From a virus: 64,000 bases of DNA. The translations under genes and the position numbers were made by a program. The stretch is taken from positions 64,001 through 128,000 of the IMG/VR virus record IMGVR_UViG_3300034358_000044. One strand, given 5' to 3'. Numbering within the stretch: position 1 is the stretch's first letter; every line of letters begins with the position of its first letter. The notes under the pieces were generated by a model. The model saw only the letters and a program-made list of their open reading frames with translations. It was not told the origin of the DNA and ran no database searches. This document shows positions 19,030 through 28,476 of the stretch, one piece after another.

Positions 19030-19333
19030 CTACTGCATCGACCATCCTGAGATTCGGTACATGCCGGCGGCCACCGACTGCCTGCCGGACCCGCCTCCCA
19101 GGGAGTGGCCTGTCGAGGCCACGGTGGATGCAACCTGCCCGGCCAACTTCGCCCTGTGCCTACAGGTAGACGCAGGACTGTCCCTGGAGCACAACCTGCT
19201 GGCCCTCAGGCGCTACTCCACAGAGGCCTGGGCCAGGTGTGGGGCTTCCGTCCCTGATGCCGGGGCTGGAGATGCTGGGGTTGCTGGGGCTGTTGATGCT
19301 GGCCGACTGGACGCTGGCTCAGGGGCCCGGTAG
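18977..19333 (+). CDS. Outer-membrane spanin lipoprotein (Rz1-like)
   Basis: Lipobox MILSLFVSVSVG-C; Pro/Cys-rich; overlaps the 3' end of the i-spanin in another frame. Confidence 0.7.
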   Translation: MILSLFVSVSVGCSLCRDYCIDHPEIRYMPAATDCLPDPPPREWPVEATVDATCPANFALCLQVDAGLSLEHNLLALRRYSTEAWARCGASVPDAGAGDAGVAGAVDAGRLDAGSGAR

Positions 19334-19753
19334 AAGGCTGATGGAGCTCGACGAGGAGAGGAAGGGGCTGGCGAAGAGCAGCTCCTCCACCTTCTGAATC
19401 AGCGCAATGCGTCGTAGGGGCTTCTCCATCACCACGGTGGCCCCGGCCTGAACCGCCTCCTGCTGGAGCTGCATGGATCCAGCAGTGATGGCGATGATGG
19501 GGATGGCCCCGAACTCCAGAGTGCCTCTGAGCTTCTTGATGAGCTGGATGCCACTCATCTTGGGCAACATCAGGTCTGTAATGATGAAGCCTGGCTGGAC
19601 CTTCTGGCAGAGATCCCATCCTGCCTCTCCGTCCATCGCCGTGAAGACCTGGTACTGGTCTCCCTCCATCGCGAAGAAGTCAGAAATCATCTTGCCGATG
19701 AGCTCTTCGTCATCGACAACAACCATCTTGAGAGTGGCCGGCTTCTGCGGCAT
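19319..19753 (-). CDS. Single-domain CheY-like response regulator receiver
   Basis: VVDDEE acidic pocket, ITDLMLP phospho-acceptor Asp, ITA and EKP motifs intact. Confidence 0.9.
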   Translation of the reverse strand: MPQKPATLKMVVVDDEELIGKMISDFFAMEGDQYQVFTAMDGEAGWDLCQKVQPGFIITDLMLPKMSGIQLIKKLRGTLEFGAIPIIAITAGSMQLQQEAVQAGATVVMEKPLRRIALIQKVEELLFASPFLSSSSSISLLPGP

Positions 19754-19860: not shown

Positions 19861-21492
19861 CTACCCGGTGACGAAGCTGTTCATCACCGTGGGGACGTCA
19901 GTCGAGAAGCCGACCACGTCCAGCATACCGGCATCGTTGGGGTCGGCGATGGTGAACCCGTTGCTCACCATGCCGCAGACGATGAGCTTGGCATCGATGC
20001 CAGTCTCCTGCCGGTACTGACGCAGCGCCTGGAACGGGTGGACCACCCCAGCGTACGTCTCTGAGTCCGTGTAGATCACGAACACGTCCACCTTCAGCTT
20101 CTCCTTGAGAGCGTACTGCATGGGGAGAGAGCAGTCGGTGGTCCCGAAGGGGATGTCCGAGATGGACCTGACCGCCTCGGGGAGCTTCATCTTCGGGGAC
20201 AGCTTGAGGGGCTTCAGCTGCGTCCCGGAGCCCCAGAGCCCGGAGCTGCCGCCGACCCCGAAGCCCACGATGTGGTGCCATGGCTCGGTCCTGGCCGTCA
20301 CCAGCGACATGGCGGCCGAGGCGTCCCTGGGGGTCAGGTTCGAGCCCGCGACGGAGCCGCCCGACATGGACCCCGAGACGTCGAGAGCCAGCAGGTAGCG
20401 CTTGCCGGTGGGCACGATGGTGTCGAAGGCCATGTAGAAGGCCTCGTCCAGCGCATCGACCACGTTGCTGTCGGGATTCCACGACAGGCTGCCCTTGAGG
20501 CCGTGCCCTGAGCTGTAGGTGCTCTGGGCCATCAGCAGGGCCATGGGGTGGATCCTGGCCTTCCTGAGGGCTTCCTTGTCCCCCAGGCGGGCAGCCACGA
20601 AGTGGGAGGCGTCGGAGAGGGGCTTGATGAGGCCGATCTCCGTCATCTTGCCCAGGTTGCGCACCATGGCGGTCAGCGGCATGCCATTGCCCGAGGTCAA
20701 GAGGGCGTCCCAGACCTTGACCGAGTTCAGCATCTGGGTGGGCACGCACTCCCTGGGCAGGTTGTAGTCCGTGATGAGCTGGACCATCTCGGTGTCCTTG
20801 GTGACCACCTTGGCCATCTCGAAGCCCCGGATGAGGGCGGGCACGAGCGGCTGGGCGGACTGCTCCGCCGGCAGCTTGCCGACCGCCCACTGGTAGCTCA
20901 GCTTCTGGACTTCGCTCTTCGGCTTGGGCTTCGCCTTCCGGAGGATGTCCCGGTGCGACCAGCCGTTCCGGCTCTGGTACTTCACCAGGTTGAGGGCGAG
21001 CGAGTCGGGCTGCTGGTTCTCGTACCAGCGGGTGAAGCCCCTCTTGGTGACGCGGCCCCAGCCACCCAGCTCCTTCACCGCCTCCGCCATCTGGAAGAGG
21101 TGAGTCCCGATGCGGCAGACCTGAGGGATGGAAGCCGAGGCCAGACGGCGCGTCTCGACGTCGCCCTCCTTCAACGCCAACGCGAGGGCGAAGATGGCAG
21201 GGTCGTTCTTGGGCGCCTTGCCCCCGCTGCTCACGTCGATGATGAGGTTGATGGCCTTCCCGCCATCTTCCTTGATGCACTCGACGACGCTGGCAGCGTT
21301 CTCCTGGGTCAGCTTCTTCTCCGAGGCGTAGTACGACCCGCCTTCAGAGCCCAGGATGAGGAACCGCTTGAAGCGTGTCCACTTGTCAGCGGCGAAGACG
21401 AAGCCACCTGCGGAGTTCTTCACCTGCGCCATGCCCGGAACCGGTTCGGTCTGGACGGTCTTCTTCGTTGAAACGTGCTTCCCGTAGTTCAT
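19861..21492 (-). CDS. rsr: Ro60/TROVE-vWA RNA-binding protein (Rsr ortholog)
   Basis: NSAGGFVF, RFLILGSEGGSYY, KYQSRNGWSHRDILR, MPLTAMVRNLGKMT, RIHPM; vWA MIDAS LDVSGSM, GTTDCSLPM, YTDSET, DAGMLDVVGF; ATG 21492 with GGGAGG. Confidence 0.95.
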   Translation of the reverse strand: MNYGKHVSTKKTVQTEPVPGMAQVKNSAGGFVFAADKWTRFKRFLILGSEGGSYYASEKKLTQENAASVVECIKEDGGKAINLIIDVSSGGKAPKNDPAIFALALALKEGDVETRRLASASIPQVCRIGTHLFQMAEAVKELGGWGRVTKRGFTRWYENQQPDSLALNLVKYQSRNGWSHRDILRKAKPKPKSEVQKLSYQWAVGKLPAEQSAQPLVPALIRGFEMAKVVTKDTEMVQLITDYNLPRECVPTQMLNSVKVWDALLTSGNGMPLTAMVRNLGKMTEIGLIKPLSDASHFVAARLGDKEALRKARIHPMALLMAQSTYSSGHGLKGSLSWNPDSNVVDALDEAFYMAFDTIVPTGKRYLLALDVSGSMSGGSVAGSNLTPRDASAAMSLVTARTEPWHHIVGFGVGGSSGLWGSGTQLKPLKLSPKMKLPEAVRSISDIPFGTTDCSLPMQYALKEKLKVDVFVIYTDSETYAGVVHPFQALRQYRQETGIDAKLIVCGMVSNGFTIADPNDAGMLDVVGFSTDVPTVMNSFVTG

Positions 21493-21503
21493 GTTGCCTC
21501 CCA

Positions 21504-21530
21504 TTCAGCTCGTGAATCCCACGAGCAAGG
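21504..21530 (-). promoter_or_regulatory. Circularly permuted Ro-binding hairpin in the rsr leader, adjacent to the RBS
   Basis: CCUU-GCUCGUG-GGAUU-CACGAGC-U-GAA directly followed by UGGGAGGCAAC-AUG. Confidence 0.6.
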
Positions 21531-21555
21531 AACCGCGACTCTGACGGTGAAACGT

Positions 21556-22089
21556 TCAGCTCCTGAACGCCTTGGTGTTTCTCTGGGCCGCGAGAGCGAC
21601 CCCTGCTGCAGAAGCGGCCAGATTCAGGGAGGGCCTGACGTTCTCCCTCTCCTGCTCCAAGGCTTCCAGTCTGTTCGAGACGTGGATGAGCTGCTCGGCC
21701 AGGCTCTCGTACTCCTCGCGGGAGACGTAGGATTTCCTTGCCTGCTGCTTCACCAACTCCTTCATCCCCTTGCGGAACTCCTTACCTTGGTCGGAGTTCG
21801 AGAGGGCGGCGAAGAGGATCATGTCGTCTTCGGACCAGACGTGCATGTCGGCCCTGAGATACTTCAACTGAAAGGTCTCTCGGTTCTGCTGGAGAAACGA
21901 AATTGCGCCAATGTCGTTGGCGCAATTGCCGTCGAACTCGTCCCGGTGATTGAGGTAGACGTTCCTGAGGTTTCTCTCAGTGACGCCCAACACACCGGAG
22001 AGAACAGAGCCCGTAGTGAACAGGGTCCCGTCCTCGTCCTCCATCATGGGGACATTCAGATTGTTGAACTGCCAGGTCATCAGTCGCAT
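21556..22089 (-). CDS. Bro-N/antirepressor-like DNA-binding protein
   Basis: N-terminal FNNLNVPMMEDEDGTLFTTGSVLSGVLGV and C-terminal coiled coil; ATG 22089 with AAGGAG. Confidence 0.55.
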   Translation of the reverse strand: MRLMTWQFNNLNVPMMEDEDGTLFTTGSVLSGVLGVTERNLRNVYLNHRDEFDGNCANDIGAISFLQQNRETFQLKYLRADMHVWSEDDMILFAALSNSDQGKEFRKGMKELVKQQARKSYVSREEYESLAEQLIHVSNRLEALEQERENVRPSLNLAASAAGVALAAQRNTKAFRS

Positions 22090-22110
22090 GCGTTCTCCTT
22101 CAAGGGGGAT

Positions 22111-22141
22111 AAAAAAAGAGGCCCCCACTCTCATGGGAGCC
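22111..22141 (-). terminator. Intrinsic terminator at the end of the tRNA/Y RNA transcript
   Basis: GGCUCCCA-UGAGAG-UGGGGGCC stem followed by UC and U7. Confidence 0.75.
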
Positions 22142-22142
22142 C

Positions 22143-22332
22143 ACGGGCAAGACGATGCTGCTCTAGGCGGGAGGTGGACATCCCTTGCGGGTACCTCGTC
22201 CGTTTCCCTACGAGACTCCCAGCAATCAGAGTCTGGGAACTATTCAGTCAAGAGCGCCGGATTGGCGATGCCCTCGAACTTGGCAACTCTCAGCCCAAGC
22301 TCTTTTCGGGTAACCTAGAACCATCAGCCCGC
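22143..22332 (-). ncRNA. Y RNA-like module E (long)
   Basis: 5' GCGGGC-U-GAUG pairs with 3' CGUCUU-GCCCGU (bulged Ro helix) and encloses several hairpins. Confidence 0.55.
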
Positions 22333-22342
22333 TTCAAAAGAA

Positions 22343-22428
22343 GAGTGAACAAGAAGTGAAACTCGGTGGGACCCTTTTGATCGGGTCCAGCGTTTTGGGC
22401 TGGAGAACCAAGTCTCTTCGGCTCACTC
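22343..22428 (-). ncRNA. Y RNA-like module C
   Basis: GAGUGAGC-C-GAAG / UUCUU-GUUCACUC, 8 bp plus bulged C; two internal hairpins. Confidence 0.7.
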
Positions 22429-22435
22429 AAGAAAA

Positions 22436-22501
22436 GTACGAGCAAGGTTGTGAATGACGGAATCTTTTTATGGTAGGTAACCGTCACTCGTCAGCTCGTA
22501 C
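22436..22501 (-). ncRNA. Y RNA-like module B
   Basis: GUACGAGC-U-GAC / CCUU-GCUCGUAC, perfect 8 bp; inner stem GAGUGACGG/CCGUCAUUC. Confidence 0.7.
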
Positions 22502-22510
22502 AAAGAAAAT

Positions 22511-22572
22511 GGCGAACAAGAATTTAACCAGGGGTATGTTTTCCGTGGATAACCCTAGAGCGTCAGCTCGCC
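22511..22572 (-). ncRNA. Y RNA-like module A
   Basis: GGCGAGC-U-GAC / UCUU-GUUCGCC, 7 bp; inner stem CUAGGG/CCCUGG. Confidence 0.7.
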
Positions 22573-22648
22573 AAAAGCTGTGGGATAGATTTCATCCCTG
22601 TAAAACCTTATGCCGAACTTCTTCGGACTTTTGAATAGCAGTGGTGAA

Positions 22649-25816: not shown

Positions 25817-25945
25817 ACGCGAGCAAGGAATCTGCCACTCCGATTTATACCGACGCTCTACCATTGAGCTACTCTCGATGCTTTGAGAGATGGGCATCGA
25901 ACCCACAACCTTCGGTTCCAGATAATGGAATGACTTCGGCTCGCT
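25817..25945 (-). ncRNA. YrlA-type Y RNA #1 (Ro stem plus permuted tRNA-like domain)
   Basis: 5' GCGAGC-C-GAAG / 3' CCUU-GCUCGC; T arm GUGGG-UUCGAUG-CCCAU, then capped acceptor-like stem CUCUC/GAGAG, then D arm UA-GCUC-AAUGGUA-GAGC; no anticodon arm. Confidence 0.85.
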
Positions 25946-28343: not shown

Positions 28344-28476
28344 GATGGGCAAGGTATTAGACTTGGGGTTTAAGCGCTCTACCGCTGAGCTACCCCGAGA
28401 TAGAATCCCGGGGGCAAGGAGTTGAACCTCGCGACCTCTCCATTATGAGTGGTAATCCAAATCAGTTCAGCCCATC
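28344..28476 (-). ncRNA. YrlA-type Y RNA #2
   Basis: 5' GAUGGGC-U-GAAC / 3' CCUU-GCCCAUC; T arm CGAGG-UUCAACU-CCUUG, capped acceptor-like stem CCCCGGGA/UCUCGGGG, D arm UA-GCUC-AGCGGUA-GAGC; no anticodon arm. Confidence 0.85.

What the first reader, a model, noticed from the sequence alone, without database searches (positions are those of the whole stretch)
21490..21563. Circularly permuted Ro-binding site on the rsr ribosome-binding site (candidate translational autoregulation)
Seen: the mRNA reads CCUU-GCUCGUG-[GGAUU]-CACGAGC-U-GAA-U-GGGAGG-CAAC-AUG. These are the two Ro-helix strands in reversed order, joined by a loop, ending 1 nt before the Shine-Dalgarno. A weaker 4-bp alternative pairing uses GAGC-U-GA at the stop codon of the upstream Bro-N gene (21563-21555). 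Inference: free Rsr binds its own leader and blocks initiation, matching Ro levels to Y RNA levels as ribosomal-protein operons do. I know of no report of this for Ro60.
Basis: partly seen in the sequence, partly recalled or inferred. Interest (0 to 1): 0.85.

Follow-up and report, generated by a model that had tools for sequence, protein, structure and literature searches.

The report
Ro-site hairpin in rsr leader
Just ahead of the ribosome-binding site of a phage gene for the RNA-binding protein Ro60 (Rsr) lies a small hairpin that copies, with its two strands swapped, the stem by which Ro60 is thought to grip the phage's own Y RNAs; the same arrangement recurs before Ro60 genes of many unrelated phages and bacteria, so Ro60 probably senses and limits its own production, which has not been tested.

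Summary
On the minus strand, 21530-21490 reads CCUU-GCUCGUG-GGAUU-CACGAGC-U-GAA-U-GGGAGG-CAAC-AUG in front of a full-length Ro60/Rsr gene.

- **Match to the Y-like RNAs.** The hairpin shares 10 and 9 bases with the closing helix of the phage's second Y-like RNA, with the strands in swapped order.
- **Not chance or a relic.** Four relatives with 64-65% identical Rsr keep CCUUGCUCG...ACGAGCUG unchanged, while the loop and the stem top vary.
- **Recurrence elsewhere.** A strict descriptor finds the motif in the last 70 nt of 16 of 145 non-redundant rsr leaders, against 1.8 expected. The stems covary, and the motif usually ends 0-4 nt before the Shine-Dalgarno sequence.
- **Same module in Y-like RNAs.** A covariance model built from the leaders also finds this capped hairpin inside tRNA-shaped Y-like RNAs, almost always on the rsr strand.
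- **Cultured examples.** Phages Phosso, StarPlatinum and Comrade carry it.

Rsr binding and repression are inferred, not shown. I found no paper reporting Ro60 autoregulation. This scan has noted the same motif on other genomes before.

The parts
21503..21530 (-). Ro-site-like hairpin. It reads CCUU, then a 7-bp stem (GCUCGUG/CACGAGC) with loop GGAUU, then bulged U and GAA-U. UU (21528-21527) lies opposite GA (21506-21505).
   Evidence: Sequence. Folds. Covariance-model hit of 24.3 bits, the best in the 64-kb window. Conserved in L005, L006, L126 and L007.
21497..21502 (-). Shine-Dalgarno sequence GGGAGG of rsr. It starts 2 nt after the GA of the motif and lies 4 nt before the AUG. In longer folds GGGA pairs with UUCC (21532-21529).
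19861..21492 (-). rsr, a Ro60 ortholog of 543 aa. An in-frame AUG at 21504 lies inside the motif, has no ribosome-binding site, and is not the called start.
   Evidence: Pfam TROVE and vWA_Ro60. PDB 1YVP, 9NEN and 2NVO at E <= 7e-116. P0001.
21532..21550 (-). Upstream leader piece. It holds the invariant UCACCG and a small hairpin (ACCG/CGGU in the window, CCGC/GCGG in relatives).
   Evidence: Alignment A3. Folds. Function unknown.
21555..21563 (-). GGAGCUGAA across the stop codon (UGA 21558-21556) of the upstream gene. It is not conserved and is sequestered in a local hairpin (21570-21552).
   Evidence: The gene is absent in relatives.
21556..22134 (-). Ant/Bro-like gene inserted between the Y-array terminator and the rsr leader. 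Its true start is probably downstream of 22134.
   Evidence: Translation. phrog_5060 at E 2e-4. No such gene in L005, L006 or L007.
22143..22573 (-). Four tandem Y-like RNAs at 22572-22511, 22501-22436, 22428-22343 and 22332-22143. Each has the normal-order helix stem-GC-(U/C)-GA...CUU-G(C/U)-stem. A terminator follows at 22142-22113.
   Evidence: Sequence. Fold of module 2 with z = -4.6. Terminator. No Rfam family reaches threshold.

Best explanation
The hairpin is a minimal, loop-capped copy of the Rsr-binding helix of Y RNAs, placed on the rsr ribosome-binding site as an autogenous translational operator.

The proposed mechanism is as follows. When Rsr exceeds the supply of Y RNAs, free Rsr docks on the bulged helix: stem, bulged pyrimidine, then GA opposite UU. 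The conserved 5'-strand motif (G-N-Y-G-A-A-N-G) runs into the first G of the Shine-Dalgarno sequence. A bound 60-kDa ring, possibly also stabilising the pairing of the flanking UUCC with GGGA, would keep the 30S subunit off. Complete Y RNAs would compete for Rsr and relieve the block, matching Rsr to Y RNA levels.

- **Shown:** the sequence, the fold, the conservation, the enrichment and the position.
- **Inferred from established knowledge:** that this helix type is the Ro60/Rsr site (Chen et al. 2014, PMC4201824, citing Stein et al. 2005).
- **Inferred only:** binding to the leader, the direction of the effect, and competition by Y RNAs.
For: 1. **Identity with the phage's own Y-RNA helix.** The leader shares CCUUGCUCGU and ACGAGCUGA with module 2.
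2. **Pattern of conservation.** In four relatives at 64-65% Rsr identity, the lower helix with its flanks (CCUUGCUCG / ACGAGCUG) is invariant. The loop (GGAUU, GGUU, GGCU, GGGCUA), the stem top and the rest of the leader all change. This is the pattern expected of a sequence-specific protein site on RNA.
3. **Enrichment.** A strict descriptor hits 16 of 145 non-redundant rsr leaders. The expectation is 1.8 from the same loci on both strands, or 0.5 from shuffles (Poisson P about 1e-10).
4. **Position.** The motif ends 0-4 nt before the Shine-Dalgarno sequence in about 19 of 24 hairpin-bearing leaders.
5. **Spread on the Rsr tree.** The hairpin-bearing leaders need at least 8-9 changes of state on the tree.
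6. **Stem variation.** Stems differ between clades through compensatory changes and G-U pairs. G5:C25, C8:G22, the bulged pyrimidine and the following G stay fixed.
7. **Covariance-model hits.** Model R1 gives 56 hits of 19 bits or more in 165 Rsr loci, all but one on the rsr strand. About half lie in leaders. The rest are the only Ro-type helix inside tRNA-shaped Y-like RNAs. Capped hairpins of this kind therefore appear to be working Rsr modules.
8. **Published motif.** The leaders carry the published Rsr motif GNCGAAN0-1G (PMC4201824), for example GCCGAAAG-GAGG. The window clade has U at the bulge both in its Y RNAs and in its leader.
9. **Model predicts new cases.** The top model hit in Sinorhizobium phage Phosso and in Streptomyces phages StarPlatinum and Comrade falls in the rsr leader. 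None of these was used to build the model.
Against: - No binding or expression data exist. No RNA data could be obtained.
- Only about one leader in six has the capped hairpin. Catera, Myrna, Sixama, Sparky, FuzzBuster and Cashline lack it.
- In one clade (L144 group) and in L217 the hairpin lies about 40 nt from the start codon, so direct occlusion of the Shine-Dalgarno sequence is doubtful there.
- L007 has GC instead of GA after the bulge.
- The covariation count is partly circular, because the seeds were chosen for pairing.
- The transcription start is unknown and no sigma-70-like promoter was found. It is therefore assumed, not shown, that the hairpin is in the mRNA.
- In a 66-nt context another fold is 2.8 kcal/mol better.
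- The sign of regulation is open. Binding could equally free the Shine-Dalgarno sequence from the CCUU flank, or stabilise the mRNA.
Confidence: 0.5

Rival explanations
1. Rsr does bind the leader hairpin, but the outcome is not translational repression. Binding could protect or mark the 5' end of the rsr mRNA after the Y RNA/tRNA precursor is processed. It could open the CCUU:SD pairing, giving positive feedback. It could also load newly made Rsr onto RNA.
For: - Same comparative evidence for a protein site as the main reading.
- The hairpin follows directly on Y RNA arrays and terminators, so read-through precursors are likely.
- Folds pair the 5' flank with the Shine-Dalgarno sequence. Ro-type U:G and U:A pairing of the same UU would compete with that.
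- In the L144 clade and L217 the site is about 40 nt from the start codon.
Against: In about 19 of 24 hairpin-bearing leaders the motif abuts the Shine-Dalgarno sequence within 0-4 nt. That placement is what steric repression needs, and a stabiliser does not need it.
Confidence: 0.2
2. The hairpin is an Rsr-independent RNA element. Candidates are a hairpin that tunes access to the Shine-Dalgarno sequence, an RNase processing site or a stability element. On this reading it looks like the Y-RNA helix only because it descends from a Y module.
For: - The Shine-Dalgarno sequence and AUG are base-paired in minimum-free-energy folds of the window, L005, L007 and L201.
- Junctions of tandem Y modules give the same strand order. 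A duplication could therefore create such a hairpin.
Against: - The unpaired signature (bulged pyrimidine, G, UU opposite) is conserved where the stem sequence is free to change. A purely structural element would not need this.
- The same capped module is the only Ro-type helix in many tRNA-shaped Y-like RNAs.
Confidence: 0.17
3. The hairpin is a non-functional relic of a decayed or duplicated Y RNA.
For: The rsr genes sit beside fast-evolving Y RNA arrays. The window's leader has recently been disturbed by a gene insertion.
Against: - 17 bases are invariant across relatives whose Rsr proteins differ at one residue in three.
- The motif recurs with different stems at the same distance from the Shine-Dalgarno sequence in many clades.
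- The leader survived the insertion intact.
Confidence: 0.05
4. The element acts at the DNA level, as a palindromic operator or part of a promoter.
For: GCTCGTG-N5-CACGAGC is a perfect inverted repeat. The rsr promoter has not been found.
Against: - Half-site spacing varies from 6 to 9 bp among close relatives.
- Other clades keep pairing only through G-U pairs.
- Hits are strand-specific, with 55 of the 56 hits of 19 bits or more on the rsr strand.
- There is no sigma-70-like match.
Confidence: 0.03

Closest known systems
Ro60/Rsr-binding bulged helix of Y RNAs. Examples are vertebrate GGUCCGA/UUGACC, bacterial and phage YrlA/YrlB, D. radiodurans Yrn1/Yrn2, and Thermus phage phiLo Yrl1/2 with the 'CGAA' motif.
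   Same: It shares the stem ending in G-C, the bulged pyrimidine, GA opposite UU, and the 5'-strand motif GNCGAAN0-1G (PMC4201824; PMC12135203). Within the window it is nearly base-for-base the helix of Y module 2.
   Different: The strand order is swapped, so the helix is closed by a 3-6 nt loop at what is the open end in Y RNAs. It has no internal loop, second stem or tRNA-like effector module. It lies inside an mRNA leader. In this clade the bulge is U, not C.
Autogenous translational operators that mimic the protein's main RNA target. Examples are the E. coli thrS operator (a tRNA-Thr anticodon-arm mimic next to the Shine-Dalgarno sequence), ribosomal-protein leaders (L1, S8, S15, L20, L25), MS2/PP7 coat-protein hairpins, and archaeal L7Ae with a k-turn in its own 5' UTR. 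These are cited from my own knowledge.
   Same: It is a small copy of the cognate RNA site placed on or beside the ribosome-binding site of the protein's own gene. The abundant cognate RNA could act as competitor. The capped hairpin corresponds to the anticodon-arm position of tRNA-shaped Y-like RNAs, which parallels thrS.
   Different: No Ro60/TROVE protein has been reported to do this. Repression is untested here.
Rfam families, including YrlA (RF02553), Y_RNA (RF00019) and nematode sbRNAs (RF01656)
   Same: RF01656, a Y-RNA homolog family, reaches its threshold on Y-like RNAs in two related loci, L165 and L173.
   Different: No Rfam family matches the leader hairpin or the window's Y modules, even at E <= 10. 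The leader element is not a described family.

Membership tests
Ro60/Rsr-binding helix of Y RNAs | 5'-strand motif GGUCCGA (animals) or GNCGAAN0-1G (bacteria, Chen et al. 2014), including a bulged C | tested here: met
   The window reads G-C-U-G-A-A-U-G, with the bulge U instead of C, as in its own Y modules 1, 2 and 4. Other clades read GCCGAAAG exactly.
Ro60/Rsr-binding helix of Y RNAs | 3' strand (C)UU-G pairing with GA, and a closing G-C pair | tested here: met
   CCUU-G is at 21530-21526. In the 20 aligned leaders, U3, G5, C8, C25 and G27 (alignment columns) are invariant.
Ro60/Rsr-binding helix of Y RNAs | Helix formed by the 5' and 3' ends of a 70-130 nt RNA that also carries an internal loop and an effector module | tested here: not met
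   The strands are joined by a 5-nt loop and the element is 28 nt long. It is followed at once by the Shine-Dalgarno sequence and AUG. It is therefore not a Y RNA.
Ro60/Rsr-binding helix of Y RNAs | Bound by Ro60/Rsr | not testable with these tools
   No RNA-protein prediction or binding data were available.
Autogenous translational operator by target mimicry | A copy of the protein's cognate RNA site in its own mRNA | tested here: met
   Covariance model R1 scores leader hairpins and the internal modules of Y-like RNAs alike.
Autogenous translational operator by target mimicry | The site overlaps or abuts the Shine-Dalgarno sequence or start codon | tested here: met
   The gap is 2 nt in the window and 0-4 nt in about 19 of 24 leaders. 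It is about 40 nt in the L144 clade and L217.
Autogenous translational operator by target mimicry | Conserved in orthologous leaders | tested here: met
   It is present in about one sixth of the leaders sampled, not in all.
Autogenous translational operator by target mimicry | Protein-dependent repression relieved by the cognate RNA | not testable with these tools
   This needs reporter, toeprint or binding assays.
Intrinsic terminator | G+C-rich hairpin followed by a U run | tested here: not met
   The hairpin is followed by UGAAUGGGAGG and was not called by the scan.
Palindromic DNA operator | Fixed half-site spacing, with strand symmetry | tested here: not met
   Spacing is 6-9 bp in close relatives. 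G-U pairs occur. Hits are strand-specific.

The most novel reading that the evidence does not exclude
Ro60/Rsr proteins are autogenous translational repressors, and Y RNAs act as the anti-repressor by titrating Rsr away. The operator is the anticodon-arm-like Rsr module of tRNA-shaped Y RNAs, reduced to about 25 nt and placed on the ribosome-binding site. This circuit is old and widespread in phages and bacteria. It would give the first known cis-regulatory target of a Ro60 protein and the first explanation of how Ro60 and Y RNA levels are matched.
Probability: 0.45. Interest if true: 0.75.

Novelty: new member of a known kind. Interest (0 to 1): 0.65.

Why it matters
Ro60 is a conserved RNA-quality-control protein and a major human autoantigen. 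How its level is matched to that of its Y RNA partners is not known in any organism.

- **A direct test.** A conserved copy of the Ro60 docking helix on the ribosome-binding site of rsr makes feedback control testable with simple assays. Cultured phages that carry it are available: Sinorhizobium phage Phosso and Streptomyces phages StarPlatinum and Comrade.
- **A minimal site.** The element defines a natural Rsr site of about 25 nt, useful for binding and structural work.
- **Strand order.** It indicates that the helix works when capped by a loop.
- **Annotation.** It gives a marker for annotating rsr leaders and Y-like RNAs that Rfam models miss.

Tried and rejected
- **Rfam.** Searches at gathering threshold and at E <= 10 gave no family for the leader or for the Y modules.
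- **Near-identical phage DNA.** None was found.
- **Pattern scan of IMG/VR.** The scan for CCTTGCTCG-N(4-14)-CGAGCTG returned 118 loci, none of which holds rsr. The 80 of them searched with R1 served as a biased negative control for the model. The only hits of 19 bits or more were at the pre-selected sites.
- **Contig of P0002.** No DNA was available.
- **Promoter scan.** No sigma-70-like site was found.
- **Normal-order helix descriptor.** It was too loose: 24 leaders observed against 13 expected, and hundreds of chance hits in the window. I used it only to point to real Y RNAs by eye.
- **ARAGORN.** It does not call the tRNA-shaped Y-like RNAs.
Rejected as not conserved.
- **A shared-strand switch between the last Y RNA and the leader hairpin (L140, L130).** Left aside as ambiguous.
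- **Complex prediction.** Not used, because it cannot take RNA.
Full report
**Setting.** The window is part of a 195.7-kb IMG/VR virus record. It carries 41 tRNA genes on the minus strand. On that strand the order is:
- the tRNA array;
- four tandem Y-like RNAs (22573-22143) ending in a canonical terminator;
- a 192-codon Ant/Bro-like ORF (22134-21556);
- a 63-nt spacer;
- rsr (21492-19861);
- a receiver-domain gene.

rsr encodes a full-length Ro60. [quoted passage not shown]

**The observation.** The phage's Y-like RNAs close with the helix stem-GC-(U/C)-GA...CUU-G(C/U)-stem. Module 2 is GUACGAGC-U-GA...CCUU-GCUCGUAC and folds as a classic stem/internal-loop/stem RNA (z = -4.6). The leader holds the same two strands in swapped order, joined by a loop. 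A pattern for this swapped arrangement occurs 3 times in 64 kb against 0.17 expected. The other two hits are the junctions between neighbouring Y modules. In contexts of 91-201 nt the hairpin has pair probability of about 1. The flanking UUCC pairs with GGGA of the Shine-Dalgarno sequence, and part of the start codon is also paired. In one short context a different fold is 2.8 kcal/mol better.

**Close relatives.** No similar phage exists in GenBank collections. Metagenomic Rsr proteins of 64-65% identity lie in syntenic loci with the order HNH gene, tRNAs, Y array, rsr, receiver gene. In L005, L006, L126 and L007 the Y-array terminator is followed directly by the leader. The Ant-like ORF of the window is therefore an insertion. 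Across these five leaders, CCUUGCUCG and ACGAGCUG are invariant. The loop (GGAUU, GGUU, GGCU, GGGCUA), the top of the stem and the surrounding leader all vary. Half-site spacing thus changes from 9 to 6. This argues for an RNA hairpin with a sequence-specific lower part and against a DNA operator. It has no counterpart in relatives, and in the window it is locked in a stronger local hairpin.

**Distant leaders.** I fetched 160 further Rsr loci at 47-66% identity from metagenomes and species genomes and located the starts. Many unrelated leaders carry the same capped helix just before the Shine-Dalgarno sequence. Examples are CUU-GCCCC-GCC-GGGGC-C-GAAAGGAG (L172), CCUU-GUCCGA-GGGA-UCGGAC-C-GAAAAGGAAG (L201) and UUU-GCCCGC-AUUUG-GCGGGC-C-GGAGGAGG (L237, a Polyangiaceae MAG).

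A strict descriptor was U[UC], G-closed stem of at least 5 bp, loop of 3-8 nt, C, bulged pyrimidine, G[AG]. It hits the last 70 nt of 16 of 145 non-redundant leaders. The expectation is 1.8 from the same loci on both strands and 0.5 in shuffled leaders. One of the 16 is a false positive inside a Y RNA.

The motif usually ends 11-15 nt before the start codon, so the Shine-Dalgarno sequence begins 0-4 nt after it. In the L144 clade and L217 it lies about 40 nt upstream.

In the 20-sequence alignment, G5:C25 and C8:G22 never vary. Four pairs show compensatory changes and G-U pairs occur. This count is partly circular, because the seeds were chosen for pairing. On an Rsr tree the hairpin-bearing leaders need at least 8-9 changes of state. 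The window's nearest named neighbours are Myxococcota and Bacteriovoracaceae contigs.

**Covariance model.** Model R1, built from the leaders, gave 56 hits of 19 bits or more in the 165 Rsr loci, all but one on the rsr strand. In 752 kb of unrelated phage DNA the only such hits were at sites pre-selected for the pattern.

About half of the hits are leaders. The others share one architecture: D-arm, then CCUU-GCCCG-loop-CGGGC-C-GAnG, then GGUUAUC, then T-arm. These are tRNA-shaped Y-like RNAs whose only Ro-type helix is the same capped hairpin, in the anticodon-arm position. They are the un-permuted counterpart of YrlA as Chen et al. describe it (PMC4201824). Capped Ro-type hairpins therefore look like working Rsr modules, and the leader element is that module alone.

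The model also predicts cases it was not built from. Its top hit in Sinorhizobium phage Phosso (19.2 bits) and in Streptomyces phages StarPlatinum and Comrade (a 4-bp version) lies in the rsr leader. Six other actinophages lack it.

**Link to known Ro60 recognition.** Chen et al. 2014 give GNCGAAN0-1G on the 5' strand as the likely Rsr motif, related to GGUCCGA, which X. laevis Ro60 contacts mainly on that strand. Work on Thermus phage phiLo used the CGAA motif to find Y-like RNAs that its Ro60 binds. Most hairpin leaders read GCCGAAAG with the last G in the Shine-Dalgarno sequence. The window clade has U at the bulge in both its Y RNAs and its leader.

**Interpretation.** The best reading is an autogenous translational operator by target mimicry, with Y RNAs as competitors. 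Binding, its sign and the competition are all inferred. The rivals are:
- an Rsr site with another outcome, such as mRNA stabilisation or activation;
- an Rsr-independent structural element;
- a relic;
- a DNA site.

The conserved unpaired signature, the fixed position and the strand bias speak against the last three.

**Literature and earlier notes.** Five full-text searches and two papers read in part gave no report of Ro60/Rsr autoregulation. Earlier notes of this scan describe the same kind of hairpin before rsr in other genomes. I treat them as leads only.

Noticed in passing
L172 1998-2102 and 2231-2362; L153 about 2215-2340 and 2355-2480; L135 about 2400-2660; L242 about 620-1080: These are tRNA-shaped Y-like RNAs. 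An acceptor stem, D-arm and T-arm enclose a long arm whose tip is the loop-capped Ro-type hairpin, followed by GGUUAUC. They look like the un-permuted counterpart of YrlA. Rfam's tRNA model hits some of them at 37-53 bits with lengths of 104-122 nt, and ARAGORN does not call them.
   Followed up: partly
window 21556-22134 (-): An Ant/Bro-like gene (phrog_5060, E 2e-4) is inserted between the Y-array terminator and the rsr leader. It is absent from relatives L005, L006, L007 and L126. The leader survived the insertion intact from UCACCG onward.
   Followed up: partly
window 21901-21927: A perfect 11-bp inverted repeat (AATTGCGCCAA-N5-TTGGCGCAATT) lies inside the Ant-like ORF. The terminator scan flagged it, and it gave spurious microRNA hits on both strands.
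   Followed up: no
window 19319-19753 (-); L007 4828-5226: A stand-alone response-regulator receiver-domain gene follows rsr in the window and in relatives. This is a conserved neighbour of unknown role.
   Followed up: no
window 25819-25944 (-) and 28344-28476 (-): Two more normal-order Ro-type helices lie within the tRNA array: GCGAGC-C-GA...CCUU-GCUCGC and GAUGGGC-U-GA...CCUU-GCCCAUC. They are likely further Y-like RNAs.
   Followed up: no
L288 1158-1179 (Sinorhizobium phage Phosso); L292 940-961 (StarPlatinum); L293 953-974 (Comrade): These cultured phages carry the capped Ro-type hairpin 9-19 nt before the rsr start codon. They are usable as experimental models.
   Followed up: partly
window 21532-21550 (-); L005 2935-2960: An invariant UCACCG and a small hairpin precede the Ro-type hairpin in all five leaders of the clade. 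In L005 and L007 a second pairing (GCUGAG/CUCAGC against GCCGAG/CUCGGC) shows a compensatory change. Its role is unknown.
   Followed up: no
L225 1460-1500 (Paludisphaera MAG): This rsr leader has a minimal normal-order hairpin, GGCGGGC-C-GA, a 12-nt loop, then CUU-GCCCGCC, followed directly by GAAGGAGG. It is a second way of putting a Ro-type helix on the Shine-Dalgarno sequence.
   Followed up: no
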